A stretch of DNA of 64,000 bases, from positions 30,648 through 94,647 of the forward strand of contig CAYFNT010000012.1 in assembly GCA_964344565.1 (NCBI GenBank), written 5' to 3'. Both the position numbers and the translations under genes were made by a program. The notes beneath the pieces were generated by a model, which saw nothing but the letters and a program-made list of their open reading frames with translations, searched no databases and was not told the DNA's origin. Position 1 is the stretch's first letter, and each line of letters starts with the position of its first letter. Shown piece after piece: positions 1 to 61,130 of the stretch. Source of the stretch: an uncultured bacterium (lineage in GTDB: Bacteria > Krumholzibacteriota > Krumholzibacteriia > JACNKJ01).

Positions 1-596
1 ATCACGCCTGAGATCGACTTGAGAGGTTCCATCAGAAAACTCGGACGAAGGGTGATGCCCACCCGGCCCGGATCGAGAGCCTCGAAGAGCTTGCCCTGTC
101 CGCTCACGTGCCATCCGCAGTAGCCCGGCGAGTAGCGCAGGCATCGGTTCTCGGCATCGTGGGCCCCGCTTCCGTTCCAAACCCGCTGAGCTTCCGCCTG
201 CAGGCGCGTCGCCGCGATTTCGGCACCCTCCGACGCGGCGCTGTCCAGCATGGAGGCCAGGGGGAACTCTCGATCCTCGAAGAGTTCGTCGATCTTTCCG
301 CTCACCTCGGCGCCCAGGGTGAGTGCGAAGAGGGCCAGGTTCTTCGCTCTTGGATAGATTTCAGCGAGGGGGCTGGACTCCGCGTTGTTCCCGGTTCCGG
401 GGTAGATCTCCGCGAACTCATCTCGGGAGATTTCCTGGAAGGTCCCGCGGCCCTCGGCGCAGCTTCGCAGCAGTTCGAGGGCCTCTTCGGCCAATCCACG
501 AAAGGAGTCCGCCGACCGATGGCCGGGATCGACCCCCTGAGCCCGGAGCAAATCGTCGACGCCGGGGCAGAGCTCCTCGCCGGTCCAGTCCAGCAC
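1..596 (-). CDS. Partial (3' end of window) vitamin-B12 methionine-synthase activation-domain-like protein (Met_synt_B12 family)
   Basis: Minus-strand frame is open from GTG at 596-594 (TAGTG overlap with the stop of the upstream mttB-like gene) to the window edge. The translation ...RCLRYSPGYCGWHVSGQGKLFEALDPGRVGITLRPSFLMEPLKSISGV matches the C-terminal motif block of the MetH reactivation domain (R.APGY...ELL...G.KLTESFAM.P.ASVSG). GC3 is high, consistent with coding. I found it by hand translation; it is absent from the ORF track because it runs off the window. Confidence 0.5.
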   Translation of the reverse strand, partial: MLDWTGEELCPGVDDLLRAQGVDPGHRSADSFRGLAEEALELLRSCAEGRGTFQEISRDEFAEIYPGTGNNAESSPLAEIYPRAKNLALFALTLGAEVSGKIDELFEDREFPLASMLDSAASEGAEIAATRLQAEAQRVWNGSGAHDAENRCLRYSPGYCGWHVSGQGKLFEALDPGRVGITLRPSFLMEPLKSISGV

Positions 597-2062
597 TATC
601 GCCACGGTTCGCGCTCCGGAAGCTTATCCATGCCGTGCCGGCGCGCCTCGGCCTGCATGAGGTCGATCAGTTCATCCTTGGTATCTGCGGGCAGCTCCGT
701 GGGCTGCCAGGCCTCCACCTTGGCCTTCACCTCGGCATTGGCACGCTGGCCCAGGCTGAGCGAGCCCTCCTCCTTCCAGCGGGAGAGGTTGGCGCGCGCG
801 ATGGCGGGGCCGGGCCAGTAGTGCTCCTCGCGCATGTACTTCATGGTGTGCTCGGAAATGAGCAGGTGGCCTTCGGAGAGCATCTCCTCGAAACGCGGAA
901 GGGCGGGGAAGTCCTCTCGAGGCTCCACGCCGCGGATCATTCGCAGGGCCAATCCCGCGATCTCGTTGTCGACCACGAGCTTCTCCAGGCTCTGGCAGCT
1001 CTCGAAGTCGAGCATGCCGGGACCCGAGATGCTGTTCACGCCCGACAAGGCGGCCAGGGTCACGCCCATGGAGCTTTCCAGTCCGGCCTGGGCATCCAGA
1101 TCCTTGGCGTCGCTCAGTCCGATGTAGGCCTGGGTGGGCAGGCCCAGATGCTTGCCGATCTCCGAGTAGGCGCAGTCAATCATCTGGGTCTCCACGGCTC
1201 CCATGGGCGTGGTCTCGTATCGGATATCGAAGGCCGCCGGCGATCCTCCATAGAGCGCGGGACAGCCCGGCGCGGCCAGCTGGCTGATGACGATGCCGCT
1301 GAGGGTTTCGGCGGTGTGCTGCACGATGGAGCCCACCAGGGTGATGGGGGCCATGAATCCCGAGAGCGGCATGGAGATGTACTCCACGGGGATTCCCGCC
1401 CGCGCGCAGTCGATGAGGTTCTGCGAGGTGACCTCGCTCCACTTCAGGGGCGCCGTGGGACAGCAGGAGAAGACCGTCAGGGGCTTCGCGGTCAGCGCCG
1501 CTTCGGATCCGCGCACGGCCAGCTGCAGATTCTTCATCAATTCGAAGGACCCGATGGTGAAGGCGCCGGTGACCACGGGTTTCTCGCCGTAGAGCAGACT
1601 GAGGAAGAGGCGGTAGCTGTCCGAGATTCCTTCCTGAACGTCGGCGGGGATGAAGGCCGTGCTCTGGGCGGCGATGTTGTCCAGGCCCTCCACGAGTTTC
1701 ACGTGACGCACGTAGTCGGCGCTGTCTGGCTTGCGGATCTTCCCGCTCTCGAAATCGAGCAGGTTGATGGCGGCCGAGCCCGGCGTGAAGTGCACATTGT
1801 CCCCGGACATGTCATGGCTGCGCCGTCCGCGGGTATCGAATAACTCGAAAGAGGAGGGGGCGGTGCTCAGCGCCTTGTCGATGAGCTCGCCGGGGAAACG
1901 AACGCGTCCGGCCGCCTCCTCCACCTGGGCGCCGTGGTCGCCCAGGAGCGCTTTGACCTCGTCGTTGTGGATGGCCATTCCCAGCTTCGCGAGGATGTCC
2001 CTCGCCTCGCCGAGAATGCGTTCGATCATGGCCTCGTCGAGAAATCGCAGCTTCGGTCTCAC
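596..2062 (-). CDS. mttB: MttB-superfamily methyltransferase (trimethylamine/glycine-betaine:corrinoid methyltransferase family), non-pyrrolysine type
   Basis: 488-aa ORF with a GTG start at 2062 and an SD GGAAGGAG 7 nt upstream. Full-length similarity to the MttB/MtgB family (e.g. ...CCPTAPLKWSEVTSQNLIDCARAGIPVEYISMPLSGFMAPITLVGSIVQHTAETLSGIV...). There is no in-frame UAG, so it is a Pyl-independent member. Stop TAG at 598-596. Confidence 0.8.
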   Translation of the reverse strand: MRPKLRFLDEAMIERILGEARDILAKLGMAIHNDEVKALLGDHGAQVEEAAGRVRFPGELIDKALSTAPSSFELFDTRGRRSHDMSGDNVHFTPGSAAINLLDFESGKIRKPDSADYVRHVKLVEGLDNIAAQSTAFIPADVQEGISDSYRLFLSLLYGEKPVVTGAFTIGSFELMKNLQLAVRGSEAALTAKPLTVFSCCPTAPLKWSEVTSQNLIDCARAGIPVEYISMPLSGFMAPITLVGSIVQHTAETLSGIVISQLAAPGCPALYGGSPAAFDIRYETTPMGAVETQMIDCAYSEIGKHLGLPTQAYIGLSDAKDLDAQAGLESSMGVTLAALSGVNSISGPGMLDFESCQSLEKLVVDNEIAGLALRMIRGVEPREDFPALPRFEEMLSEGHLLISEHTMKYMREEHYWPGPAIARANLSRWKEEGSLSLGQRANAEVKAKVEAWQPTELPADTKDELIDLMQAEARRHGMDKLPEREPWR

Positions 2063-2113
2063 ACCGGCTCCTTCCGCGTCGGGAAGCGAGCATAGGGGAG
2101 TGGATCCTTTGGA

Positions 2114-3061
2114 TCAATAGAAGCGGCGCTTCAGTTCACCCCAGGGGAGGTTCTCGCGGACCTCGGGCGCGGAAGTGGGGCCCAGACAACTGACCGGCCA
2201 GGCGCCGATGAGGTCGCAATCCGGGTTCGGCGGCGTATGGGGGCCGCAGGGCGAGCCTTCCCACAGGCCGAAATCGCCCGATTCGGGATAGCAGAACAGG
2301 GGATCCAGTCCGATGTTGCCGTCCACGCCCAGGAGTTCGGCCAGGGGACCGATCCAATTGCCGTCGGGATTGCCAAAGAGATCGCAGCACTCCATCTGCG
2401 GAGCGCTCTCGCAGAGGATCGCTTCACTGCCCGTATTGTGCATGAAGATGCAATTCTCGAAGGTGTAGTCATCTCCCTCGTGCAGATTCACCGCGGCTCC
2501 GAGATTGCTGCTGTTGCCGTAGAAGCTGCAGTTCCGGAAATCCGCGGAACCGTTGATGTCGGCCACCGCGCCGCCGAGCTCCGCCGCGTTGCTCCAGAAA
2601 GTGCAGCCCTCGAAGCGTGCATGGGAGTCGTCGATGGCGACGGCGCCGCCCAGAAGGGCTGAGTTCTCTTCGAAGACGCAATCGCGGAAGACCAGGTCTT
2701 CGCATCTCCAGATGGTCGCTCCGCCGCCGTCGTTGGCCACGCCGCCCTTGATGGTGATGCCCTCGATGATCGTGGGGGCGCCCGACAGCTCGTAGCAGAT
2801 CAGGGCGTTTCCCTGATTCCAGGCATCGACGATCACGCAGGACGGATCGCCGGTCTCGCTGCGCAGGGTGATGCCCGAGTCCATGTTGATCATCCAGGTC
2901 TGGTAGTAGCCGCAGGCGATGAGCACGGTGTCGCCGGGCTCGGCCACCATGATGCCGGCCTGGATGCTGGGAATCTCCCCGGGTACGTGAATGGTGTCGG
3001 ATGTAGCCGGAAGGATGATGAGCAGGGCCGCGAGGGCCGTGATGCATGCGCGCTGGGACAT
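2114..3061 (-). CDS. Secreted right-handed parallel beta-helix repeat protein, paralog 1, with Cys-rich C-terminal module
   Basis: The real start is ATG at 3061 (MSQRACITALAALLIILPATS signal peptide; SD AGGAGGA). The upstream extension of ORF 2114..4174 has no protein-like features. PbH1-like repeats (GGA[VI]..D...[FS]..C.F..N). The C-terminal block CCDLFGNPDGNW...DPLFC...SPC...DC.LIG...C...W..LKRRFY is shared with paralogs 2 and 3. Confidence 0.6.
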   Translation of the reverse strand: MSQRACITALAALLIILPATSDTIHVPGEIPSIQAGIMVAEPGDTVLIACGYYQTWMINMDSGITLRSETGDPSCVIVDAWNQGNALICYELSGAPTIIEGITIKGGVANDGGGATIWRCEDLVFRDCVFEENSALLGGAVAIDDSHARFEGCTFWSNAAELGGAVADINGSADFRNCSFYGNSSNLGAAVNLHEGDDYTFENCIFMHNTGSEAILCESAPQMECCDLFGNPDGNWIGPLAELLGVDGNIGLDPLFCYPESGDFGLWEGSPCGPHTPPNPDCDLIGAWPVSCLGPTSAPEVRENLPWGELKRRFY

Positions 3062-3226
3062 CCCAATCCTCCTGAGGTATCGCTCCCAATTCCCACTAAA
3101 CATGGATTTTACATGATCGTGCCAGATAATACTAGACCCCTTGGTGTTGATCATGGAGGATTCTCGAAGAGAAGATTTCGAAGGATCGTGGTGTCCGCTC
3201 AGGGAACTCATCCCAGGAGGTGGAGG

Positions 3227-4888
3227 ATGGAAAGTCGCAGAAACGAGATGGTATTCGGACCTCTGGCGTTTTTCATCGGGGTCGTTCTCTTCCTGCTTCA
3301 ATTCCCTTCCGAGGCTTGGGGCGATCGATTCGACTTCGAGTACAACACCTCCGGAGTCCTGGACCAGAAGCACGATAGCTGGATGGGTGGCGATTACATC
3401 GTCGCGACCATCGAAAACAAGTCGGGTCAATGGCTCAGACTGCGTGAGCTTTCGCTGCCCCTGGGCGTCGATACGCGACTCGATTCCGAGTGGATCGTGT
3501 TCCTGAACGTGCCTTCCGGAGATCCCCCCGGAAATCCCGAGTTCGCGGACTACTCCGGTACCTTCGATCCGGACACGCCACCGCCAGCCTACACCGACAT
3601 CGATCTCTATCCCCATGGCATCCTGGTGGAGCCCGGCACTGCCTTCTCCGTCGGCATCCGAAGCGCCTACATTCCCTACGATCTCTATGTAGGCACCGTC
3701 AAAGCGACCTTTTCCGCCTATACCTTCCGCTGGATCCCGAGGGGCTGGGAATCTCTGGAAGGGGTGCACGCAGTCACGGCCCTGATCCAGGTCTATGCGG
3801 ACTACGTGGACATGTCCGACATCCTCGTCTTTCCGGACGGCAGCGGTCTTTTCCCGACCATCCAGCACGCCATCGCGGCGGTGGATTTTGGCGGCACCGT
3901 ACGACTGGCCGACGGTGTTTTCAAAGGCGAAGGCAACAGCAAGCTGACCTTCTTCGGCAAGGACCTGACCCTGAAATCGGTCTCGGAAGATCCGAAGACC
4001 TGCATCATCGACTGCGAAGGGGATCTGCCCCTTTCGGGGCCATCTACCGGCACGGGCATCATCTTCAACGAGGGCGAAGGTCCCGGTGCGGTGGTGAGCG
4101 GCATCACCATTCGCAATGGAGTCTTCGAAGTGGGGGCCGGCATCCTGGTGGACAACTCCTCCCCGGTCATCCACAACTGCGTCTTCGAGAACGGATTCTC
4201 CGCCGCCGGCGCGGGAGTCTACGTCTACAAGGGATCGCCTGAGATCGTCGCTTGCGTGTTCCGCGACAACTACGCGGAGTGGTCGGGCGGCGGTCTGCAG
4301 ATGGAGTTATCCGACGGCGTGGTCTCGCACTGCCGATTCGAGAGGAACCACGCCGGCAATTACGGGGGCGGCGCGCTCTTCGGCGATTGCGACGGCACGA
4401 GCCTCGAGCACTCCGTGTTCTACGCGAATTGGTCGGATATCTACGGAGGAGCGCTGCTTCTCGGAGGCACCGCCATTTCCATGAGCCAGTGCACTCTGTC
4501 GGAGAATTCGGCGCCCAAGGGAAGCGCCATCTACTTGGAAGGCCAGGGCCCTGACATCTGGATGAGCATCCTCAGCTTCGGAGACTCTCCGCCCCTCTTC
4601 ATCGACGGGCCCCGATCCGTTCCGGATTTCGTCTGCTGCGACATTTTCGGCAACACCGGCGGAGATTGGGTAGGAGAGATCGCAGATCAGCTGGGCACCG
4701 ACGGCAACTTCAATCTCGATCCCCAGTACTGCGGCGAACTGGGCACGGGGGATCTGACCCTCCAGGACGATTCGCCTTGCGGGCCCGGCGGCAACGACTG
4801 CGGTCTTCTCATCGGCGGCGAAACCGTGGAATGCGACGACACCGTTGCGGCCCCGACCACATGGAGCAGATTGAAACAGCTTTATTGA
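3227..4888 (+). CDS. Secreted right-handed parallel beta-helix repeat protein, paralog 2, with Cys-rich C-terminal module ending WSRLKQLY
   Basis: Start ATG 3227 (MESRRNEMVFGPLAFFIGVVLFLLQFPSEAWG signal peptide, SD AGGAGG). ORF 2987 is an upstream extension. Beta-helix repeats (NCVFENG.SAAGAGVYVY.GSPEI..C.F..N...). The C-terminal 85 aa align with paralog 3 at about 80% identity. Confidence 0.7.
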   Translation: MESRRNEMVFGPLAFFIGVVLFLLQFPSEAWGDRFDFEYNTSGVLDQKHDSWMGGDYIVATIENKSGQWLRLRELSLPLGVDTRLDSEWIVFLNVPSGDPPGNPEFADYSGTFDPDTPPPAYTDIDLYPHGILVEPGTAFSVGIRSAYIPYDLYVGTVKATFSAYTFRWIPRGWESLEGVHAVTALIQVYADYVDMSDILVFPDGSGLFPTIQHAIAAVDFGGTVRLADGVFKGEGNSKLTFFGKDLTLKSVSEDPKTCIIDCEGDLPLSGPSTGTGIIFNEGEGPGAVVSGITIRNGVFEVGAGILVDNSSPVIHNCVFENGFSAAGAGVYVYKGSPEIVACVFRDNYAEWSGGGLQMELSDGVVSHCRFERNHAGNYGGGALFGDCDGTSLEHSVFYANWSDIYGGALLLGGTAISMSQCTLSENSAPKGSAIYLEGQGPDIWMSILSFGDSPPLFIDGPRSVPDFVCCDIFGNTGGDWVGEIADQLGTDGNFNLDPQYCGELGTGDLTLQDDSPCGPGGNDCGLLIGGETVECDDTVAAPTTWSRLKQLY

Positions 4889-4923
4889 GATCGGGATGAA
4901 GTCACTCGACCCGGGAGGTGGTC

Positions 4924-6615
4924 ATGGAGGATCGCTCTCGCCCTAGTCTTCCCCTTTGTATGCTGTCCTTGTTGATTCTGCTCGTTCTCATCCCATCCCT
5001 CTCCTGGGGCGAGGTCGTGCAGCTTTCCTCCGGGTCGCCCGAATCGGCGGATGCTCCGCGTGAGCTCCGCTGGGATTTCGAGCACAACACCTCCGGCGTG
5101 CTCGACATGGACGCCACCCACGTCGGAAATGGAAGCAGCTGGCAGGAAGTCACGGCCACCATTCACAACGATTCGGGTCATTGGCTGAGGCTGAGGGAAC
5201 TGTCCTTCCCGGCCATGATCATGGATTGGAAGGGCGAATGGCACTGGCATATCTGGACAGGCATGTCCGGTCCCGGGCCGCCGCCCACAGAACCCGGCAG
5301 TCCTGATTTCACCGGCAGCTTTCCGCCCCCCGAGGGGATCTGGGACTACACCGTCCTGCCTCTGGATGCCTGGGAGATCTACATCGCCCCGGGCGAGTTT
5401 TTCTCCGCGGGATACGGATCCCCGGAAGGCCACCGTGGCCTACGCGACGTGGTCACCGGCGATACCTACAATTGGTGGAACGATGACTGGCAAAGATGCG
5501 AGAACAACGGCTACACGCTGCTGATTCAGATCATGGCCGAGTATGTGGACACGGGCGAGATCGTCGTCTATCCCGACGGTACGGGCCTCTACCCGACCAT
5601 CCAGAAGGCCATCGACGCAGTGCTGCCCGGCGGTACCGTGCTGCTGGCCGACGGAGTGTTCAGCGGTCCGGGCAACATCGACCTGGACTTCGGCGGGAAG
5701 CACCTGACCCTGAAGTCCGTCTCGGAAGATCCATCGACCTGCATCATCGATTGCAGCGACCCACCTCGCGGACGCGAAGCGAGAGGACTGCGTTTCGTTT
5801 CCGGGGAAGGGCCCGATGCGGTGGTCGAATACATCAGCGTGCTCAACGGATGGACCGAAGGCGGACCGGGGATCCGGATCTCGAACAGCTCGCCCACGAT
5901 CCGACACTGCGTATTCGACAACGGATACTGCATCGATGGGGGAGGAATCCTGATCAACAAGGGCTCACCCGAAATCGTCGGATGCACATTCCTGAATGGG
6001 GATGCGGGATACGGGGGAGGCATCCTTTCCCGCTTGGCCTCGCCCAGCATTCGCCATTGTCGATTCGAATCCAATCAGGCGGGTGTCGCGGGAGGCGCCA
6101 TCTACATGGTCGGCTGTCCGGATGCGCTGATCGAGCACTGCGTCTTCTACGACAATACAGCCAAGGACGGCGCGGGCATCTTCCTGGGGAACTCGCCCCT
6201 GCAGATCACCTCCTGCACCTTCGCGGAAAACGAAGCCGCGAACGGAAGCGGAATCTTCGTGGAAGGTGAGGGCCCCGAAATCTGGACGAGCCTCATCGTA
6301 TTCGGACAAGGCGATGCCCTTTACTGCGTTCCCAACGGACGAGCCCTGCCCGAACTCGTATGCTGCGACCTCTTCGGCAACACCGGAGGAGACTGGACCG
6401 GGTGCATCGCGGACCAATGGGGAGTCGACGGTAACTTCAGCGACGATCCACAGTTCTGCGGTGAACTGGGCACGGGAAACCTGACCCTGCAAGATGACTC
6501 CCCCTGCGCTCCCGGCGGCAACGGCTGCGGCCTGCTCATCGGCGGCGAAACCGTGGAGTGCGATGACACCTACGCCGCTGCGACCACATGGAGCAGATTG
6601 AAACAACTCTACTAG
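4924..6615 (+). CDS. Secreted right-handed parallel beta-helix repeat protein, paralog 3, with Cys-rich C-terminal module ending WSRLKQLY
   Basis: ATG 4924 preceded by GGGAGGTG (ORF-track start 4918 is a GTG two codons upstream). Signal peptide MLSLLILLVLIPSLSWG. Collinear with paralog 2 across the N-terminal domain (WDFEHNTSGVLD...WLRLRELSFP), the beta-helix region and the C-terminus. Confidence 0.7.
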   Translation: MEDRSRPSLPLCMLSLLILLVLIPSLSWGEVVQLSSGSPESADAPRELRWDFEHNTSGVLDMDATHVGNGSSWQEVTATIHNDSGHWLRLRELSFPAMIMDWKGEWHWHIWTGMSGPGPPPTEPGSPDFTGSFPPPEGIWDYTVLPLDAWEIYIAPGEFFSAGYGSPEGHRGLRDVVTGDTYNWWNDDWQRCENNGYTLLIQIMAEYVDTGEIVVYPDGTGLYPTIQKAIDAVLPGGTVLLADGVFSGPGNIDLDFGGKHLTLKSVSEDPSTCIIDCSDPPRGREARGLRFVSGEGPDAVVEYISVLNGWTEGGPGIRISNSSPTIRHCVFDNGYCIDGGGILINKGSPEIVGCTFLNGDAGYGGGILSRLASPSIRHCRFESNQAGVAGGAIYMVGCPDALIEHCVFYDNTAKDGAGIFLGNSPLQITSCTFAENEAANGSGIFVEGEGPEIWTSLIVFGQGDALYCVPNGRALPELVCCDLFGNTGGDWTGCIADQWGVDGNFSDDPQFCGELGTGNLTLQDDSPCAPGGNGCGLLIGGETVECDDTYAAATTWSRLKQLY

Positions 6616-6705
6616 TAGGGGAGGGATTCGGCTATAATCTGATGCGTGGGGACCCCCGCGAACCGGGGCGATGACGCCGGGTACCCGTGAACAGGGGAAA
6701 GCCGA

Positions 6706-7917
6706 ATGCGTCCTGCGCAGCTCAAATCGATCCTCGCAGTCGCCCTCCTGGCGACCTTCGCGATCCTGCCCCTCAGGATCGACGTCGAGCCCGACGCCTC
6801 CGACCCGATTCCGAAACTCCCAGCCCATCACAACTGCCGTTTCTGGGGGGGCGTCTCCACGGTGCTCGACTCGCTCATGCTCCACGACCAGATCATCGTG
6901 CAGCCCCAGTCCCTCGAGAATCTCAGTCCCAGCAATCCCAACGGATGGGCGCTCGCACATTTCCCGGGAGAGGGCGAGCATCCGGTGATCCGGCGCGGAC
7001 CCCACCCGGCCATCGAGGATCCTCTCTACGACATGGCCGTGGCGAGGGCCGGCGCCGATTCGGCGCGCATCGTCATCGGACACGTGCGCAACTGCACCAG
7101 CGGACTCTGCGACATTCCCAATCCCCATCCATTCTATCGATTGTTCGGAGGGAAGCACTGGTTCCTGGGGCACAACGGCAGCATCGACAAGGAAGTGCTC
7201 CTGGACCTGATCCGCCCCGACTTCCTGGCGGCCAATCCGCCGGTGAACGGCTCGGACTTCGAGGAGTGGGTCGACAGCGAGCTGTACTTCCTCTATATCC
7301 TCCAGACCCTCGAGGACCACGACTGGCAGATGGCGCCGGCTCTGGGCGAGGTGGTGGAGTGGCTCAGGGTTCGCATCATCGGCGACATCGAGCAGCTCAA
7401 TTTCGTCATGACCGACGGTGAGACCCTCTGGGCCTATCGCGAAGGCATCGCCCTCTTCTACCACTTCAACACCGACGGCATCGTCCACTCGGCGGTGGCC
7501 TCCAAGCATCCCCCCGAGGAGCAGGGTCCCTGGACCGAGATGGTGGACGGCCAGCTCATCACCCTGCGGCGGGGCATTCCGCCCATCCTGCAGAACGTGG
7601 AGGATTTCTTCACCCACACCCAGGCCGGCGAAACTCCCCTGCCGTCGGCGAAGCTTTCGGCCTGGCCCAATCCCTTCAATCCCAGCACCACTCTGCGCTG
7701 GACCCTGCCCGAGCGGGTCCATTGCCGGGTGAGCATCCACGAGGTGAGCGGCCGGGAAGTGGCCGAACTGGCCGAGGGCGTCATGGAGGCGGGGGAGCAC
7801 GAGCGGGGCTGGACGGCCCGGGACGAGCGGGGCCGGCCCCTCTCCAGCGGGGTCTATATCCTGCGGCTCAGGGCGGGACAGCTTTCCGCCTCCGAGAAGC
7901 TCGTTCTTCTTCAATAG
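6706..7917 (+). CDS. Secreted class-II glutamine amidotransferase-like Ntn hydrolase (YafJ/GATase_4-6 type) fused to a T9SS type-A C-terminal sorting domain
   Basis: Signal peptide MRPAQLKSILAVALLATFAILP. Candidate nucleophile Cys in HHNC|RFWGG, then WALAHFP, VIGHVRNCTSGLCDIPNPHPF and FLGHNGSI motifs collinear with E. coli YafJ. C-terminal 85 aa: WPNPFNPSTTLRWTL...SGVYILRLRAGQLSASEKLVLLQ (Por_Secre_tail / T9SS type-A CTD). Confidence 0.7.
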   Translation: MRPAQLKSILAVALLATFAILPLRIDVEPDASDPIPKLPAHHNCRFWGGVSTVLDSLMLHDQIIVQPQSLENLSPSNPNGWALAHFPGEGEHPVIRRGPHPAIEDPLYDMAVARAGADSARIVIGHVRNCTSGLCDIPNPHPFYRLFGGKHWFLGHNGSIDKEVLLDLIRPDFLAANPPVNGSDFEEWVDSELYFLYILQTLEDHDWQMAPALGEVVEWLRVRIIGDIEQLNFVMTDGETLWAYREGIALFYHFNTDGIVHSAVASKHPPEEQGPWTEMVDGQLITLRRGIPPILQNVEDFFTHTQAGETPLPSAKLSAWPNPFNPSTTLRWTLPERVHCRVSIHEVSGREVAELAEGVMEAGEHERGWTARDERGRPLSSGVYILRLRAGQLSASEKLVLLQ

Positions 7918-27449: not shown

Positions 27450-28844
27450 ATGGCGGACTCCGATACCACGAAAAGCTCCGGCACATCCGCGCCGAGAGCC
27501 GCCCAGTACACCGAGGGGAGCGTGATCCGCTCGGTGCTGAACATGGGCTTTCCCTCCATGATCGGATTCGCCGCCACCAACGTCTACGACATCGTGGACA
27601 TGTTCTGGGTGGCCAAGCTCGGCGCATCCAGCGTGGCCGCCGTGACTCTCTTCTTCTCATTCTACTGGGTGATCAGCTCGGCCAACATGATCGCCGGGGC
27701 AGGATCCGTGGCGGTGATTTCGCGCCGTTTCGGCGAGGACGACATCCCCGGCACCGAAGCGGCCATCAAGGAATCGATCCTGCTCAAGCTGGGTCTCGCC
27801 TTGATCGTGGGCTTCGTGGGATACGGATTCCTCTGGCCCGTGCTCAGGCTATTGGGCGCGGAGGGCGAGATTCTGAGGCTCTCGGCCAGCTACGGCAGCG
27901 TGCAGCTCCTGGGCCTCGGCGTGAGCTTCTCGAGCTTCACCATCTACACGGCGCTCAGGAGCGTGGGAGAGCCGCGCAAGGCCATGGTGCTCATGATCGC
28001 GGGTGTGATCCTGAACATCGCCCTGGATCCCTTCCTCATCTTCGGCTGGGGGCCCTTCCCGCGGCTGGAAGTGGCCGGCGCGGCCTGGGCCTCGATCATC
28101 TCCTACGGCTTCACCTTCATCGCCGGCCTGTTCATGTTCTACGGCGGGTTCAGTTCCGTGCGCCTGCATCTGCGCGGGGCCGACCGCGTGAGGCTGAGCC
28201 GCATGATGCACATCCTGCGCATCGGCCTGCCCGCGGGCTTCAACAGCTTCTCCTTCTCACTCGGCCGCGCGGTGATCATGCCCATGGTGGCGGCCTTCGG
28301 CGCCAACGTGGTGGCGGTCTACGGCATGTCCATGCGGGTGACGGCTCTGGGCATCATGATCATCGTGGGCATGGGCCTCGGGCTCTCGGCCCTCATCGGC
28401 CAGAACCTCGGCGCCGGCAAGCCGGAGCGGGCCTGGGACACATCCATCGCCTCGATCCGCTTCCTTGTGGGCGTGACCAGCGTATTCTCGCTGATGGTGA
28501 TCCTGCTGGCGAGGCCCATCACCGGGGCCTTCTTCCAGGATACGGACATCCTCGCCATGGGCGTTCCCACCCTTCGCATCTTCGCCCTGGCCCTGCCCTT
28601 CGCCGCCCTGGGCATCACCTTCGACATTTCATGCAGCGGCGCGGGCGAGAACCGGGCGCCCATGCTCTTCTCGATGCTCCACACCTGGGTCCTGCAGATC
28701 CCCTTCATCCTCATCGCGACGAAACTGCTCGGGCTAGGTTATCAGAGCGTCTGGTGGGCCATGCTGCTTTCGGGCGTGATCGGACCGGGCTTCTTCTGGT
28801 TCACGTATTTCCGGAGAAGGACTTGGCTGGCGAGGAAGGTTTGA
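27450..28844 (+). CDS. MATE-family multidrug/oligosaccharidyl-lipid efflux transporter
   Basis: 464 aa with 12 predicted TM helices and a typical MATE N-terminus (IRSVLNMGFPSMIGFAATNVYDIVDMFWVAKLG). Confidence 0.85.
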   Translation: MADSDTTKSSGTSAPRAAQYTEGSVIRSVLNMGFPSMIGFAATNVYDIVDMFWVAKLGASSVAAVTLFFSFYWVISSANMIAGAGSVAVISRRFGEDDIPGTEAAIKESILLKLGLALIVGFVGYGFLWPVLRLLGAEGEILRLSASYGSVQLLGLGVSFSSFTIYTALRSVGEPRKAMVLMIAGVILNIALDPFLIFGWGPFPRLEVAGAAWASIISYGFTFIAGLFMFYGGFSSVRLHLRGADRVRLSRMMHILRIGLPAGFNSFSFSLGRAVIMPMVAAFGANVVAVYGMSMRVTALGIMIIVGMGLGLSALIGQNLGAGKPERAWDTSIASIRFLVGVTSVFSLMVILLARPITGAFFQDTDILAMGVPTLRIFALALPFAALGITFDISCSGAGENRAPMLFSMLHTWVLQIPFILIATKLLGLGYQSVWWAMLLSGVIGPGFFWFTYFRRRTWLARKV

Positions 28845-28849
28845 ATTAC

Positions 28850-28901
28850 GAACTGTGAACTATGAACTGTGAACTATGAACTGTGAACTATGAACTATGA
28901 A
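28850..28901 (+). repeat. Heptamer tandem repeat (GAACTRT)x7 immediately after the MATE stop codon
   Basis: GAACTGT GAACTAT alternating, 7 full copies from 28850 to 28898. It forms the left arm of a larger imperfect palindrome around the 28906-28928 hairpin. Confidence 0.8.
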
Positions 28902-28905
28902 TAAA

Positions 28906-28928
28906 CCCTCCTCGAATCTCGAGGAGGG
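28906..28928. terminator. Bidirectional rho-independent terminator between convergent MATE gene and hdr/kor operon
   Basis: Perfect 10-bp inverted repeat CCCTCCTCGA / TCGAGGAGGG. It is followed by TGTTTCGTT on the plus strand and TTTATTCATA on the minus strand. Confidence 0.65.
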
Positions 28929-28934
28929 TGTTTC

Positions 28935-28962
28935 GTTCTCAGTTCTCAGTTCTCAGTTCTAG
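28935..28962 (+). repeat. Heptamer tandem repeat (GTTCTCA)x4, inverted relative to the GAACTRT array
   Basis: GTTCTCA GTTCTCA GTTCTCA GTTCTAG. AGTTC is the reverse complement of GAACT in the upstream array. It overlaps the stop codon of the small Zn-ribbon ORF. Confidence 0.8.
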
Positions 28963-29087
28963 TCTTTTCCTTCAGGCAACGGCCTTACGCTATTGCTATG
29001 GCACTCCGGGCAGGACCTTTCCTTGGGCACCTTGGGGTCGTAGGGACCCTGGTACTTATGCCCGCAGCTCAGGCAGTGGAAGGTCAC
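28959..29087 (-). CDS. Small Zn-ribbon protein (FmdB-like CxxC...CxxC), 42-47 aa
   Basis: Hand-translated minus-strand ORF (V/M)TFHCLSCGHKYQGPYDPKVPKERSCPECHSNSVRPLPEGKD*. GTG start at 29087, or TTG at 29102 overlapping the hdrA-mvhD stop. High GC3. Too short for the ORF track. Confidence 0.35.
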   Translation of the reverse strand: MTFHCLSCGHKYQGPYDPKVPKERSCPECHSNSVRPLPEGKD

Positions 29088-29094
29088 GGTGGAC

Positions 29095-31590
29095 TCAGCC
29101 AATGGGCACCTCCTTCCCTTCACCCTGGCGACGCTCGAGGATCTTGGCGCGCTGTTTCTCCTTGCGGGCCGAAACCTTGCCCATTTCCTCGTCCAGGATG
29201 CGCTGGGTCTCCTCGATCTCCTCGAGGGTGACGAACTTGCGCATGCGGTCCAGGTCCTTCATCACCTTGGCGAACTTGCTTCCCTGGGCCGCGCTGATCC
29301 ACTCGAGCTGCAGGCGTTCGGGCCTGATGCCGAGCTTTTCGAGGCGGTTCCAGAGCTTCTCCACGCGTTTCTGCGTCCACTGCACCGCGTTGATGTAGTG
29401 GCAATCGGAGAAGTGGCAGCCGCTGACCAGCACCATGGACGATCCCTGGCGGAAGGCTTCGAGCACGAAGTCCTCGTCCACGCGACCCGAGCACATGGTG
29501 CGGATGAGCCGCGCATGGGCCGGATACTGGGAGCGATTGGTTCCGGCAAGGTCCGCGCCCGGATAGGAGCACCAGTTGCAGGCGAAGGTGACCACCTTCT
29601 CGTGGGCCTTCTCCGCGCAGATGGCTTCGATCTGAGCGTAGATCTGGTCATCGTCGTAGTGACGCATCTTGATGACGTCGGTGGGACACTCCGAGGCGCA
29701 GGTTCCGCAGCCGGCGCAGGCTGCTTCGATGACCTCGGGGAAGATCCCGCCCTTCTTGTCGGGCTTGGTGATGGCCCCGTAGGGGCAGACCGTGGCGCAG
29801 ATTCCGCACTGGGTGCAGTAGGTGTGATCGATCACCGAGGTGATGGCCTCGATGGTCACCTTCCCCGCATTCAGCAGAATGCTGGCCCGGCTCGAGGCCG
29901 CGCTGGCCTGCGTCACCGAGTCCTTCACGTCCTTGGGGAACTCGTTGCAGCCCGCGAAATAGACGCCGCGGCTAGGAGCGTCCACCGGCTTGAGCTTCGG
30001 GTGGCTCTCCATGTAGAAGCCGTCCGAGGTGTTCGAGAGATTCAGCAGCTTCTTGATGATGCCGCCGTCCCGCCGCGGGATGAGCCCCGTGGCCAGCACG
30101 ACCATGTCCAGTTCGTGCTTCTCGAGCTTGCCGGTGGTGGTGTTCTCCACGGTGATCTTGAGGTTGTTCGTTTCCGGATCCTCCTCGATGCCGCCGGGAA
30201 GACCGCGAACGTAACGCACGCCCTCGTCCTTGCTGCGCCGGTAGAGATCCTCGAATCCCTTGCCGAAGGCCCGAATGTCCATGTAGAACACCGAGCTCTC
30301 GCTGTCGGGATAGTGATCCGCCAGAAGCAGGGTGGACTTGACCGTGTTCATGCAGCAAATGTTGCTGCAGTAGGGATTTCCCTTGGGGGACAGGTCCCGC
30401 GAGCCCACGCACTGGATGAAGCCGATACGCTTGGGACGCTCCTTGTCCGAGGGTCGCATGAAGTGACCTTCGGTGGGGCCGCCCGCGCAGATCAGCCGTT
30501 CGAATTCCATCGAGGTGATGACGTTCGGGTAGCGCGTGTATCCGTATTCGTCGTACTCGGTGGGGTCGTAGACGTCCGCGCCGGTGGCCACGATGATCGC
30601 GCCCACCTCGACGTTGATGAACTCGTCCTCCATGTCGTAGTCGATGCAGCCCTTCTCGCAGACTTCCTTGCACTTGCCGCAGGCGATGGGATTGGTGCCC
30701 AGGCAGTTGTCCATGTCGATGAGGAAGGACGAGGGCACCGACTGCGGGAAGGGGATGTAGATAGCCTTCCGGCTGGAGAGACCCTCCTGATACTCGTCGG
30801 GAACGGCCACGGGACAGACCTCGACGCAATCGCCGCAGGCGGTGCACTCGGTCTCGTCCACGTACTTGGCCTTCTTGCGCACCGTCACGTGGAAATTGCC
30901 CACGAATCCGGTGACGTTTTCAACTTCGCTGCTGGTGAGGAGCTTGATCTTGGGATGCCGACCGACATCCATCATTTTGGGCCCCAGAATTCATATAGAG
31001 CAATCCATTGTGGGATAGGTCTTGTCCAACGCGGCCATGATCCCACCGATGCTCGCCTCCTTTTCCACCAGATAGACGTAGTGTCCCGCATCGGCCAGGT
31101 CGAGCGCGGACTGTATTCCCGCGACTCCCCCTCCAACGACCAGTGCGGCTTTCGTCACCGGAACTTCGGTCTCGATCTGAGGCTCCAGGAAGCGGGCCCG
31201 GGCCACGGATGAGGCGACCAGGTCCTTGGCCTTGGCGGTGGCCTCGCCTTTCTGCCCCGAGTGCACCCAACTCACGTGTTCGCGGATGTTCGCCATCTCC
31301 AGGAGGTAGGGGTTCAGTCCCGCCTCCTTCAGGCAATTCCGGAACGTGGGCTCGTGGATCTTCGGGGTGCAGGAGGCCACGACGACGCGATTGAGCTTGT
31401 GCTCGTGCACCGCCTTGATGATCTCCATCTGCCCGGGATCCGCGCAGGTGTACTTGTTTCCCACCACCGCCACCACATCGGGCAGGGTTGCCGCGAATTT
31501 CGCGACCTCCGCCGTGTCGACCGTGCCGGCGATGTTCTTTCCGCAATCGCAGACGAACACGCCGATGCGAAGGTCCTGCGGTTTTACCAT
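29095..31590 (-). CDS. hdrA: Heterodisulfide reductase subunit A (HdrA) fused to a C-terminal MvhD/FlpD domain; candidate selenoprotein with in-frame UGA (30993-30991) decoded as Sec
   Basis: ORFs 30991..31590 and 29095..30975 are collinear. They are separated only by TGA plus 15 nt in the same frame: ...[12 protein letters not shown][UGA][18 protein letters not shown]. This aligns with the canonical HdrA ...FPT.DCSMCILAPKMV..GRHPNIKL, with the UGA exactly at the second Cys of the redox CxxC. The N-terminal 4Fe-4S domain ([12 protein letters not shown]) and FAD site ([20 protein letters not shown]) are present. The C-terminal 140 aa are an MvhD domain ([15 protein letters not shown]...[10 protein letters not shown]). 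Confidence 0.75.
30953..30970 (-). ncRNA. Candidate bacterial SECIS-like hairpin about 23 nt downstream of the hdrA UGA
   Basis: mRNA GGAUG-UCGGUCGG-CAUCC: a 5-bp stem with an 8-nt loop containing GGU, beginning 23 nt 3' of the UGA. The position is compatible with a SelB-binding SECIS, but it is weakly defined. Confidence 0.25.
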
Positions 31591-60226: not shown

Positions 60227-61062
60227 TGCGCGGGCGCGGACGAATCGTGAAGCTCTTCCTCAGCTATGCCGTGCTGATCCCCGCGGCGCTGGTGAGCGTG
60301 TTTCCGATTCTGCAGATCCTGAACATCTCGCTGAGGCCCTCGGACCAGTTCGCGAGCACCAGCCTGGGCTTGATTCCCGATGGGGCCACCCTGCGCGCCT
60401 ACGCGGTGATGCTCTTCGAGAAGGACTTTCCCCTGTGGATGATGAACAGCCTCATCGTGTCCCTGGCCACGACCATCATCGGCATCGCCCTGGCCAGCAC
60501 CGCGGGCTACGCCTTCAGCCGTTTCCGCTTCCCGGGGCGACGGGCCGGCCTCATGATCTTCATGGTGAGCCAGATGTTTCCCGCCACCATGCTGCTGCTG
60601 CCCCTGTTCATCCTGATGCGTCGTCTCGGCCTGGTGGACAGTTTCATCGGCGTGACCATCGCCTACGTGGTCACGGCCCTGCCATTCTGCGTGTGGACCA
60701 TGAAGGGCTACTACGACACGATTCCCCGCGAGCTGGAAGAGGCGGCCTGGGTGGACGGCACCAGCGAACTCGGTGCCTTCTTCCGCGTGTCCCTGCCGCT
60801 GGCGAGTCCCGCACTCGTGATCACCGCGCTCTTCAGCTTCATGACCGGCTGGAACGAGTTCATGGTGGCGCGGGTGCTGCTGTCATCGAAACGACTCTTC
60901 ACCCTGCCTCTCGGACTCGAAAACCTCACCGGCACCTTCTCCACCGAATGGGCGAACTACGCCGCCGGCAGCCTCATGGTCTGCATTCCTGTGGTTGTTC
61001 TGTTCGTGGTGCTCAGCAAGTATCTTGTGGGAGGGTTGACCCTGGGAGGAGTGAAGGGGTAG
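60223..61062 (+). CDS. Sugar ABC transporter permease (MalG-like)
   Basis: 279 aa with an EAA motif region (EAAWVDGTSELGAFFRVSLPLASPALV). Confidence 0.8.
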   Translation: MMRGRGRIVKLFLSYAVLIPAALVSVFPILQILNISLRPSDQFASTSLGLIPDGATLRAYAVMLFEKDFPLWMMNSLIVSLATTIIGIALASTAGYAFSRFRFPGRRAGLMIFMVSQMFPATMLLLPLFILMRRLGLVDSFIGVTIAYVVTALPFCVWTMKGYYDTIPRELEEAAWVDGTSELGAFFRVSLPLASPALVITALFSFMTGWNEFMVARVLLSSKRLFTLPLGLENLTGTFSTEWANYAAGSLMVCIPVVVLFVVLSKYLVGGLTLGGVKG

Positions 61063-61125
61063 TCGTCAGTCTCCAGTCTCCAGTCGCCAGTCTCCAGTCT
61101 CCAGTCGCCAGTCTCCAGTCTCCAG
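61063..61125 (+). repeat. Heptamer tandem repeat (TCKCCAG)x9, equivalently a 21-mer x3, filling the gap between convergent malG-like and phosphorylase genes
   Basis: TCGTCAG TCTCCAG TCTCCAG TCGCCAG TCTCCAG TCTCCAG TCGCCAG TCTCCAG TCTCCAG, running from immediately after the TAG stop (61062) to 5 nt before the TGA stop of the minus-strand gene (61131-61133). The core CAGTCTC is related to CAGTTCT of the 28935 array. Confidence 0.8.
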
Positions 61126-61130
61126 CAAGA

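What the first reader, a model, noticed from the sequence alone, without database searches (positions are those of the whole stretch)
28850..28962. Bidirectional terminator embedded in an inverted pair of heptamer arrays (GAACTRT)n and (GTTCTCA)n
Immediately after the MATE stop codon there are seven GAACTRT heptamers. A perfect 10-bp hairpin follows, then four GTTCTCA heptamers that run into the stop of a small Zn-ribbon ORF. The arrays are mutually reverse-complementary at the GAACT/AGTTC core, so the whole 113-nt segment is a long imperfect palindrome centred on the terminator. Each unit of the left array carries TGA. A second, related array (TCKCCAG x9) fills the gap between convergent genes at 61063-61125. 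These look like a genome-specific family of short satellite repeats sitting at convergent 3' ends. They might act as terminator extensions or as protein- or RNA-binding sites.
Basis: seen in the sequence. Interest (0 to 1): 0.5.

Follow-up and report, generated by a model that had tools for sequence, protein, structure and literature searches.

The report
Heptamer microsatellites flanking a bidirectional terminator
Two convergent genes are separated by a conserved terminator hairpin whose flanks have grown into mutually complementary 7-base microsatellites; the copy number changes quickly between close relatives, and this is a local example of a known but poorly understood kind of bacterial repeat, not a new system.

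Summary
Window 28842-28901 holds about 7.4 GAACTRT units. An 11-bp hairpin with a 3-nt loop lies at 28905-28929, and 3.7 GTTCTCA units lie at 28935-28960. A separate array of nine CAGTCKC units lies at 61061-61125. Period 7 is the only non-triplet period that forms arrays in the 64 kb. Independent assemblies give identical sequence, so this is not an assembly artefact.

Four related genomes (93-98% identical HdrA) keep the hairpin, with compensatory changes, and about three degenerate units beside the Zn-ribbon gene. The array beside the MATE gene has 0, 2, 7 or 12 units, with different unit variants. That is the signature of slippage-driven simple sequence repeats. They appear to have grown out of the A-rich and T-rich flanks of a bidirectional intrinsic terminator.

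The second array is unpaired and unstructured. In a 94% relative the same spot holds hexamer repeats instead, which argues against sequence-specific binding.

There it lies close to upstream stop codons, not specifically at convergent junctions. Heptamer repeats and inverted heptamer pairs are already described (Mrazek 2007; Rehm 2015, Xanthomonas).

Verdict: a new member of a known kind, of modest interest. A genome-wide count for the source organism could not be made.

The parts
27450..28844 (+). MATE efflux transporter gene. Its stop codon (28842-28844) lies inside the first, degenerate repeat unit.
   Evidence: ORF. Pfam MatE E = 5e-48. The exact protein is found on ENA and Logan contigs.
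28842..28901 (+). Left heptamer array: one degenerate unit plus about 7.4 GAACTRT units, with a 14-nt superperiod. It is the A-richer 5' arm of the extended stem. This is the array that varies among relatives.
   Evidence: TRF and the period scan. The orthologous array has 0, 2, 7 or 12 units in four relatives.
28905..28929 (.). Hairpin with an 11-bp stem and a 3-nt loop, terminator-like on both strands. It is the conserved core of the locus.
   Evidence: Terminator scan on both strands. Fold of -20.6 kcal/mol, z = -6.3. Kept in relatives, with 3 pairs changed on both sides. It occurs once in the window.
28935..28960 (+). Right heptamer array, GTTCTCA x3.7, the T-rich 3' arm. It is the reverse complement of (AGAACTG)n and abuts the Zn-ribbon stop. 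About 3 units, partly degenerate, are kept in all four relatives.
28959..29123 (-). Small Zn-ribbon ORF, conserved downstream of the HdrA-like gene. The likely true start is the TTG at 29102, which overlaps the HdrA stop and has GGAGG 8 nt upstream.
   Evidence: ORF. Weak Pfam Zn_ribbon_8 match, E = 5e-4, below the curated cutoff. The ORF is kept in L268, L266, L267, L244 and L245. The start was read from the sequence.
29095..30975 (-). HdrA-like / MvhD (FlpD) fusion gene, upstream of the Zn-ribbon ORF in the same operon. It was used to fetch the orthologous loci.
   Evidence: Pfam FlpD and Fer4. Related loci.
61061..61125 (+). Second heptamer array, CAGTCKC x9, with a 21-nt superperiod. It fills the gap between the convergent ABC permease and alpha-glucan-phosphorylase-like genes. 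It has no inverted partner and no hairpin.
   Evidence: Unstructured, z = +1.6 on both strands. Identical in two assemblies from different runs. Replaced by hexamer repeats in a 94% relative.

Best explanation
These are heptanucleotide simple sequence repeats (microsatellites).

At 28842-28960 they have grown out of the two flanks of a conserved bidirectional intrinsic terminator, which serves the convergent MATE gene and the Hdr/Zn-ribbon operon. Such a terminator has an A-rich 5' flank and a T-rich 3' flank, and these flanks are inherently complementary. A short complementary motif, (AGAACTG)n against (CAGTTCT)n, arose there in the ancestor of this clade. Replication slippage has since expanded, contracted and mutated the units in 7-nt steps, independently on each arm.

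Because both arms descend from the same unit, the whole 113 nt folds as a long interrupted stem around the terminator hairpin on either transcript. This probably reinforces the 3'-end stem-loop, but the copy number itself is not constrained.

The array at 61061-61125 is a repeat of the same kind filling a short convergent spacer, with no structure of its own.

Shown: the arrays, their complementarity, conservation of the hairpin, and copy-number and unit turnover among relatives. Inferred: slippage as the mechanism, origin from the terminator flanks, and a weak or absent sequence-specific function.
For: 1. Tandem, near-perfect 7-nt units far beyond chance, with period 7 the only non-triplet period that forms arrays.

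2. The orthologous spacer in four genomes with 93-98% identical HdrA. All keep the hairpin, with compensatory changes (ACCCTCCTCGAG/CGAGGAGGGT against ACCCTTCTCC/GGAGAAGGGT). All keep about 3 AACTGAG-type units next to the Zn-ribbon stop. The MATE-side array has 0 units (L267), 2 CAGTTCT (L266), 7 YAGTTCA (window) and 12 (L268: TTAGTTC x8 plus TCAGTTC x4). Relatives at 81-83% have terminator-like hairpins but no arrays.

3. Higher-order periods of 14 and 21 nt indicate expansion by duplication of 2- and 3-unit blocks.

4. The arms are unequal (7.4 against 3.7 units here, 3 against 12 in L268), so most extra units have no pairing partner. In L268 eight units are looped out. Growth is therefore not driven by pairing.

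5. L266 and L267 show the presumed starting state: a hairpin with GAACGAAAA upstream and a T-run downstream, with the flanks already pairing.

6. The second array is unstructured. Its site holds (CAGCTA)2.5 and (GAAAGA)3 in a 94% relative.

7. The same architecture is common. More than 120 JGI loci were found, median GC 0.64. In co-directional junctions they lie nearer the upstream stop (median 12 against 32 nt; 30 against 11 cases, p = 0.008). 37 of 124 have their own hairpin in the spacer.

8. Literature. Heptamers are the most abundant long simple sequence repeats in many bacteria, and slippage was proposed as the cause (Mrazek 2007, as summarised in PMC4679880). Xanthomonas GGGAATC arrays are 89-93% intergenic, lie near the upstream ORF, form 70-75 inverted pairs, and vary in length between close species (PMC4692102).
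Against: - The Zn-ribbon-side array keeps about 3 units in all four genomes, and an extended stem is predicted in all four. This could reflect selection on the long stem and not neutral drift.
- Consensus assemblies from two or three samples show no copy-number polymorphism, so the arrays are not hypermutable on the time scale of this population.
- Both loci in the window sit at convergent junctions: 2 of about 5 convergent junctions against 0 of about 28 others, hand-computed hypergeometric p of about 0.02 from the gene map. Pure slippage does not explain this.
- Slippage itself, and any effect on termination, were not and cannot be tested here.
Confidence: 0.7

Rival explanations
1. The arrays are a selected, functional part of the terminator. 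The complementary heptamers form a long 'zipper' stem that strengthens bidirectional termination or protects both 3' ends from exonucleases, with a length that slippage can tune. This overlaps with the best explanation and differs only in claiming selection on the arrays.
For: - The extended stem is predicted in all four relatives, z = -4.9 to -8.8.
- The arm orientation (A-richer arm 5', T-rich arm 3') is the one compatible with a bidirectional terminator.
- The class is 3'-proximal in metagenomes and depleted at divergent junctions (6 of 84 against 15% of the background).
- In 705 kb of JGI loci there were 3 further elements of this orientation and none of the opposite.
Against: - Copy numbers on the two arms are unequal, so many units cannot pair.
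- L267 has no recognisable MATE-side array and still keeps the hairpin.
- In the window and in L268 the T-run after the hairpin on the Zn-ribbon strand is weaker than in L266 and L267.
- The second array has no structure at all.
Confidence: 0.2
2. The arrays are multivalent binding platforms for an oligomeric RNA- or DNA-binding protein. An example would be regularly spaced YAG/GAG triplets read by a ring-shaped RNA-binding protein, as speculated for TAACTGA repeats in Beggiatoaceae.
For: - All three arrays share a YAGTY core on one strand.
- The units resemble TAACTGA and the cyanobacterial STRR1 and STRR3 units (PMC4679880; STRR units from my own knowledge of Mazel 1990).
- The same units (CAGTTCT, GAGACTG) recur as arrays in unrelated contigs.
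Against: - The unit sequence differs between orthologous arrays: YAGTTCA, TAGTTCT, CAGTTCT or none.
- The second site has hexamers in a close relative.
- The 7-bp spacing is out of phase with the DNA helix.
- No candidate binding protein is encoded next to either locus.
- The shared core partly reflects how I chose the search patterns.
Confidence: 0.06
3. The 113-nt palindrome is a miniature mobile element (MITE, REP or BIME-like) inserted between the convergent genes.
For: - The segment is a long imperfect palindrome in an intergenic spacer.
- Multi-copy inverted heptamer-array elements exist in some phage genomes, up to 11 per 11 kb.
Against: - The hairpin occurs once in the window, even allowing 3 mismatches.
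- No target-site duplication or second copy was seen.
- The element is at the same position in four diverged genomes and differs among them by stepwise unit changes, not by presence or absence.
- There was no hit for the flank-plus-arm 21-mer in JGI metagenomes.
Confidence: 0.03
4. The arrays are an assembly artefact (collapsed or invented low-complexity sequence).
For: The k=31 Logan contigs end inside the arrays.
Against: - Independent MEGAHIT assemblies of different runs give identical arrays at both loci.
- Related MAGs from other studies carry homologous arrays at the same site.
- Contig breaks at k=31 are expected for any tandem repeat longer than k.
Confidence: 0.01

Closest known systems
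Long simple sequence repeats with heptanucleotide units in prokaryotes (Mrazek, Guo and Shah 2007, as summarised in PMC4679880 and PMC4692102)
   Same: Both are tandem 7-nt units, intergenic and longer than chance. Heptamers are the dominant non-triplet period. Length changes in unit steps between relatives, and slippage is the proposed cause.
   Different: A genome-wide excess could not be shown here; only 2 loci were found in about 83 kb. The source is an uncultivated lineage whose permease homologues at 65-70% identity are labelled Candidatus Eisenbacteria. It is not one of the taxa listed in that work.
Xanthomonas GGGAATC heptamer repeats, including 70-75 inverted 'convergent' pairs per genome (Rehm et al. 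2015, PMC4692102)
   Same: Both have heptamer arrays on opposite strands close together that can form stem-loops. Both are intergenic, lie close to the end of the upstream ORF, sit between the same genes in related species, and vary in length and sequence.
   Different: The Xanthomonas unit is G-rich and forms G-quadruplexes, and one unit dominates the genome. Here the units have no G-runs, each array has its own unit, and the pair encloses a separate GC-rich terminator hairpin.
Cyanobacterial short tandemly repeated repetitive (STRR) heptamers (Mazel et al. 1990; units recalled from memory: CCCCAGT, TTGGTCA, CAACAGT)
   Same: Both are intergenic tandem heptamers. STRR1 and STRR3 share the CAGT core seen in all three window arrays.
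   Different: The units and the phylum differ. STRRs are present at about 100 copies per genome for each unit, which was not shown here.
TAACTGA direct repeats of marine Beggiatoaceae, some Cyanobacteria and Bacteroidetes (MacGregor 2015, PMC4679880)
   Same: Both are heptamers that carry stop codons in every frame. The unit differs by one base from GAACTGA/GAACTRT. Indels between strains come in 7-nt steps.
   Different: TAACTGA sets lie mostly just upstream of start codons in forward orientation and are rarely inverted (1 of 170). The window arrays lie at 3' ends and are inverted.
Bidirectional Rho-independent terminators between convergent genes
   Same: A GC-rich hairpin lies directly after both stop codons, with an A-rich 5' flank and a T-rich 3' flank, and is conserved with compensatory changes.
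   Different: The flanks are elaborated into microsatellites. In the window and in L268 the T-tracts are interrupted by the repeat units.

Membership tests
Heptanucleotide simple sequence repeat (long SSR in the sense of Mrazek 2007) | Head-to-tail copies of a 7-nt unit, longer than expected by chance in that genome | tested here: met
   TRF finds 8.6, 3.7 and 8.4 copies at 83-100% match. A five-unit pattern gives 8 overlapping matches against 0.00 expected.
Heptanucleotide simple sequence repeat (long SSR in the sense of Mrazek 2007) | Copy number changes in whole-unit steps between related genomes | tested here: met
   The orthologous site has 0, 2, 7 or 12 units.
Heptanucleotide simple sequence repeat (long SSR in the sense of Mrazek 2007) | Genome-wide over-representation of period 7 relative to other periods | tested here: inconclusive
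   Period 7 gives 3 arrays against 0-1 for the other non-triplet periods in 64 kb. Another 19 kb of the same genome adds none.
Xanthomonas-type inverted heptamer pairs (Rehm 2015) | [quoted passage not shown] | tested here: met
   Arms are 72-84% complementary and 33 nt apart, and abut both stop codons.
Xanthomonas-type inverted heptamer pairs (Rehm 2015) | G-rich unit able to form a G-quadruplex | tested here: not met
   The units GAACTRT, GTTCTCA and CAGTCKC contain no G-runs.
Xanthomonas-type inverted heptamer pairs (Rehm 2015) | One unit present at more than 100 sites per genome | not testable with these tools
The source genome cannot be read as a whole.
Cyanobacterial STRR | Units CCCCAGT, TTGGTCA or CAACAGT in a cyanobacterial genome | tested here: not met
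   The units differ. The gene content and closest MAGs are not cyanobacterial.
TAACTGA repeats (MacGregor 2015) | Unit TAACTGA, mostly within a few nucleotides upstream of a start codon in forward orientation | tested here: not met
   The unit differs by at least one base. All arrays lie after stop codons of convergent genes.
Bidirectional intrinsic terminator | GC-rich stem-loop directly downstream of the stop codons of two convergent genes | tested here: met
   The stem has 11 bp, 7 of them G-C, and lies between the stops at 28844 and 28959.
Bidirectional intrinsic terminator | U-tract after the stem on both transcripts | tested here: inconclusive
   The scan accepts both strands (GTTTCGTTCT and TTATTCATAG), but the tracts are interrupted. 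L266 and L267 have clean T-runs.
Bidirectional intrinsic terminator | Structure conserved through compensatory changes | tested here: met
   Three pairs changed on both sides among 4 sequences. Each sequence folds to a perfect hairpin.
Bidirectional intrinsic terminator | Transcripts actually end there | not testable with these tools
   No RNA 3'-end data are available.
MITE, REP or BIME-type mobile palindrome | Many near-identical copies per genome; presence or absence polymorphism at insertion sites | tested here: not met
   There is a single copy in the window at up to 3 mismatches. The element is present at the same site in four diverged genomes. The JGI scan for the flank-plus-arm 21-mer found nothing.
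Curated RNA family (Rfam 15) | Match at the gathering threshold | tested here: not met
   There is no Rfam hit at either locus.

The most novel reading that the evidence does not exclude
Inverted heptamer-array hairpins may be a distinct and widespread class of 3'-end elements in high-GC bacteria. On this reading the stem is built from a microsatellite, so slippage can lengthen or shorten it while keeping the arms in register. The arm orientation would then matter: A-rich arm 5' and T-rich arm 3' at terminators, and the opposite orientation in the multi-copy elements between co-transcribed genes of Mu-like phages. The window locus would be one element caught at four stages of growth.
Probability: 0.12. 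Interest if true: 0.55.

Novelty: new member of a known kind. Interest (0 to 1): 0.3.

Why it matters
Heptamer microsatellites are the commonest long simple repeats in many free-living bacteria, yet their origin and function remain unexplained. This locus gives a clean evolutionary series in four close genomes. It runs from a plain bidirectional terminator with complementary A-rich and T-rich flanks, through 2 units, to 7 and 12 units. This suggests one concrete route by which inverted heptamer pairs arise. For annotation it is a reminder that such arrays break short-k assemblies and should not be read as regulatory sites without evidence. For this window in particular, it does not point to a new system.

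Tried and rejected
1. Exact-protein look-ups for the Zn-ribbon ORF and the permease found nothing. The MATE, MttB and phosphorylase look-ups worked.

3. The one genome-contig scan went to fetching orthologous loci. A genome-wide count in the source genome or in its 98% relative was therefore impossible.

4. I tried to sample other parts of the same genome through paralogues of the T9SS sorting domain. The search returned only short fragments on short contigs.

5. A JGI scan for the 21-mer GAACGAAACACCCTCCTCGAG, looking for more strains of the subclade, found none.

6. Rfam has no family at either locus, and the window has no tRNA or tmRNA.

7. The mobile-element reading was rejected.

8. The idea that the arrays provide stop codons in all frames holds for the first locus but not for CAGTCKC, which has no stop in any frame on either strand (read from the sequence).

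9. A promoter-like match inside the left array is a 9-of-12 consensus match of no weight.

10. Megablast of the Mu-like contig L315 against GenBank phages found nothing.

11. Homologues of its transposase carried no organism names.

Full report
**What is there.**

The window is 63% G+C. The MATE transporter gene (27450-28844, +) faces a small Zn-ribbon ORF (28959-29123, -) that follows an HdrA/MvhD-like gene. A 114-nt spacer lies between them. It contains, in order:
- a degenerate unit overlapping the MATE stop;
- seven GAACTRT units plus a partial one, in which G and A alternate to give a 14-nt superperiod;
- a hairpin with an 11-bp stem and a 3-nt loop (28905-28929);
- 3.7 GTTCTCA units that run into the Zn-ribbon stop.

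The two arrays are 72-84% complementary. The whole segment folds to about -52 kcal/mol on either strand, with z = -8.5 and -7.7. The hairpin alone gives -20.6 kcal/mol.

A second array of nine CAGTCKC units, with a 21-nt superperiod, fills the 68-nt gap between a sugar ABC permease gene and an alpha-glucan-phosphorylase-like gene at 61061-61125.

A scan of periods 4-12 finds arrays only at period 7, apart from one hexamer and one 12-mer repeat. A five-unit YAGTYNN pattern has 8 overlapping matches against 0.00 expected.

**Not an artefact.**

The MATE protein is encoded on contigs from several runs of ENA project PRJEB17505. Two MEGAHIT assemblies carry exactly the same spacer. The second array is identical in assemblies of two different runs. 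Logan contigs (k=31) stop inside both arrays, which is what any tandem repeat longer than k does.

**What relatives show.**

A protein-anchored scan of species-representative genomes returned 30 loci. Three MAGs have HdrA 98%, 95% and 93% identical to the window (L268, L266, L267) and the same Zn-ribbon/MATE convergent arrangement.

Aligned, the four spacers share:
- the stop codon;
- about three AACTGAG-type units, partly degenerate;
- the motif GAACGAAAC;
- the hairpin.

The hairpin comes in two versions related by compensatory changes.

On the MATE side the picture is quite different in each genome:
- L267 has only a T-rich run with a faint 7-nt echo.
- L266 has two CAGTTCT units after a clean T-run.
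- The window has seven YAGTTCA units.
- L268 has eight TTAGTTC followed by four TCAGTTC.

CAGTTCT is the exact reverse complement of the unit on the other side, so the inverted symmetry is ancestral to the clade. The later growth was one-armed and used mutated units. All four fold into an extended stem around the hairpin. In L268 eight units have no partner and are looped out. Relatives at 81-83% keep the Zn-ribbon ORF and have terminator-like hairpins, but no arrays.

For the second array, the only close relative recovered has a 94% identical permease (L274). At the same convergent spacer it has (CAGCTA)2.5 and (GAAAGA)3, which are hexamers of unrelated sequence. The window array itself is less structured than shuffled sequence, with z = +1.6 on both strands.

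**Interpretation.**

Several features are the marks of slippage-prone simple sequence repeats:
- unit-step length changes between close genomes;
- unit variants that expand in blocks;
- unequal arms;
- replacement by other repeats at the same site.

The conserved functional element is the hairpin. By position, composition and conservation it is a bidirectional intrinsic terminator. Its A-rich upstream flank and T-rich downstream flank are complementary by nature, and that is the likely seed of the inverted pair.

I therefore read the locus as a terminator whose flanks became microsatellites. The long stem probably helps 3'-end formation or stability, but the number of units is not constrained. 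The second array is a repeat of the same kind acting as spacer filler.

Slippage, the origin from the flanks and the functional neutrality are inferences. Nothing here measures transcription.

**Is there a family with a positional rule?**

In about 83 kb of this genome (the window plus 19 kb of extensions) there are only these two loci. Both are at convergent junctions. That is 2 of about 5 convergent junctions against 0 of about 28 others, a hand-computed p of about 0.02 from the map.

The source genome could not be scanned as a whole, so I looked at the class instead.

In viral contigs selected by heptamer patterns:
- Arrays are about 20-30 times denser in intergenic DNA than in coding DNA, with no excess at convergent junctions.
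- In co-directional junctions they lie nearer the upstream stop (median 15 against 40 nt).
- 14 of 46 neighbouring array pairs are reverse complements of each other.

The window's own architecture is three GAAC-phased units, 15-45 nt, then three GTTC-phased units. Of the 84 classifiable intergenic cases:
- 58 are between co-directional genes, 20 between convergent and 6 between divergent genes. The junction background is 300/81/68 (p = 0.076).
- In co-directional junctions they sit closer to the upstream stop (median 12 against 32 nt; 30 against 11 cases, p = 0.008).

In addition, 37 of all 124 elements found in these loci carry a separate hairpin in the spacer.

So the rule is 'after a gene's 3' end', not 'between convergent genes'. 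The terminator-in-arrays design recurs in many unrelated high-GC bacteria.

**Comparison with what is known.**

Heptamers are reported as the most abundant long simple sequence repeats in many prokaryotes, with polymerase slippage as the suggested cause (Mrazek 2007, as summarised in PMC4679880, and PMC4692102).

Rehm et al. (PMC4692102) describe GGGAATC arrays in Xanthomonas. They are 89-93% intergenic and on average 28 nt from the upstream ORF. They lie between the same genes in two species but vary in length and sequence, and they form 70-75 inverted pairs per genome. That is the closest described parallel. The differences are the G-rich, quadruplex-forming unit and the dominance of one unit in the genome.

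The TAACTGA repeats of Beggiatoaceae (PMC4679880) and the heptamer elements of Geobacter metallireducens (PMC2700814) are further cases with other positions.

The window loci fail the unit and position criteria of the STRR and TAACTGA families. They fail the multi-copy criterion of mobile palindromes. They match no Rfam family. I file them as a new member of the known kind 'intergenic heptanucleotide repeats, inverted-pair form'.

**Side observation.**

In IMG/VR the opposite arm orientation is far commoner than the window's:
- CAGT...ACTG gives more than 120 loci, against 1 for ACTG...CAGT.
- GTTC...GAAC gives 89 loci, against 6 for GAAC...GTTC.

The opposite orientation occurs up to 11 times per 11 kb between co-directional small genes of Mu-like phages. 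In 705 kb of JGI loci chosen for the window's orientation, there were three further elements of that orientation and none of the opposite.

One reading is that the A-rich-5'/T-rich-3' orientation goes with terminators and the other with hairpins inside operons. This is untested and may only reflect a few expanded phage families.

**Verdict.**

The locus is an ordinary, if neat, example of a known but unexplained repeat class. Interest is modest.

Noticed in passing
L315 (IMGVR_UViG_3300025506_000008) 66-7201; also L326, L295, L303, L301: These are multi-copy hairpins built from heptamer arrays. (CAGTAAT/CAGTGAT/CAGTGGC)n is followed by a short conserved loop, AAAGGCAAAAA or its complement, and then by (ATTACTG-type)n. 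L315 has 11 copies in 11 kb, lying between small co-directional genes of a Mu-like phage (MuA, MuB and Gam hits). Contig GC is about 0.6. Related prophages (L481-L483, MuA 82% identical) carry (CAGTAGC)n-AAAGGCAA arrays, at least one of them just upstream of a ribosome-binding site. In L481 the prophage lies next to host TusA, DsrE and Hdr-like genes.
   Followed up: partly
Viral-contig scans: Inverted heptamer pairs show a strong orientation asymmetry. CAGT-arrays 5' of ACTG-arrays give more than 120 loci, against 1 locus for the reverse. GTTC...GAAC gives 89 loci against 6 for GAAC...GTTC. This is unexplained and may reflect a few expanded phage families.
   Followed up: partly
L432, L404, L456, L416 (IMG/VR contigs, GC about 0.6): This is a second multi-copy family: (GTTCAAN)4, a C/T-rich loop, then (NTTGAAC)3-5. 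It is often preceded by a small GCCCC-TTCG-GGGGC tetraloop hairpin that itself sits between heptamer units. There are 4-5 copies per 9-13 kb.
   Followed up: no
L263 837-939; L265 3811-3888 and 8025-8051; L260 20832-20866: High-GC Acidobacteriota and Thermoanaerobaculia MAGs were fetched only because of their HdrA homologue, yet they also carry heptamer arrays (CGACTCC, ACGAYTC, GAATTAW, CAATTCT, AAAAACT). Those that my gene calls place in intergenic DNA lie between co-directional genes. In the 30 protein-anchored loci, period 7 is again the commonest non-triplet period.
   Followed up: partly
L274 1055-1094 (NCBI GCA_029935835.1, permease 94% identical): The spacer orthologous to window 61063-61130 holds hexamer repeats, (CAGCTA)2.5 and (GAAAGA)3, in place of heptamers. 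Short convergent spacers in this lineage seem prone to being filled by simple repeats of any kind.
   Followed up: partly
window 28831-28842 and 28903-28914: The last codons of the MATE gene (CGAGGAAGGTTT) are 92% complementary to the left arm of the terminator hairpin (AAACCCTCCTCG). This gives a possible alternative pairing across the left array. It may be chance, because the MATE end also resembles the right arm of the hairpin.
   Followed up: no
window 28959-29123 (-): The Zn-ribbon ORF is conserved after the HdrA-like gene in relatives down to 81% identity. It most likely starts at the TTG at 29102, which overlaps the HdrA stop (ATTGGCTGA) and has GGAGG upstream. This suggests translational coupling. 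The mechanical ORF list starts it at the GTG at 29123.
   Followed up: partly
window 1018-1117 (-): Rfam PYLIS_3 matches at 38.3 bits against a gathering score of 38, inside an uninterrupted 488-aa MttB-family methyltransferase gene (596-2062). Just left of the window, in locus L280, this gene is followed by genes with B12-binding and methyltransferase domains. There is no in-frame amber codon, so this is probably a non-pyrrolysine MttB homologue and the RNA hit reflects similarity of the coding sequence.
   Followed up: no
window 63594-63639: A 22-nt repeat (ACTACGACTAACTACGGTGGAA, 2 copies, 83% match) lies inside the start of a large PKD/FlgD_ig secreted-protein gene that runs off the window end.
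   Followed up: no
L034, L236/L243, L239 (IMG/VR contigs, GC 0.53-0.62): GAGACTG, GAGATTG and GAGACTA arrays, the same unit as the window's second array, recur 2-5 times per 4-15 kb locus in unrelated contigs. This heptamer is therefore a frequent array unit elsewhere.
   Followed up: no
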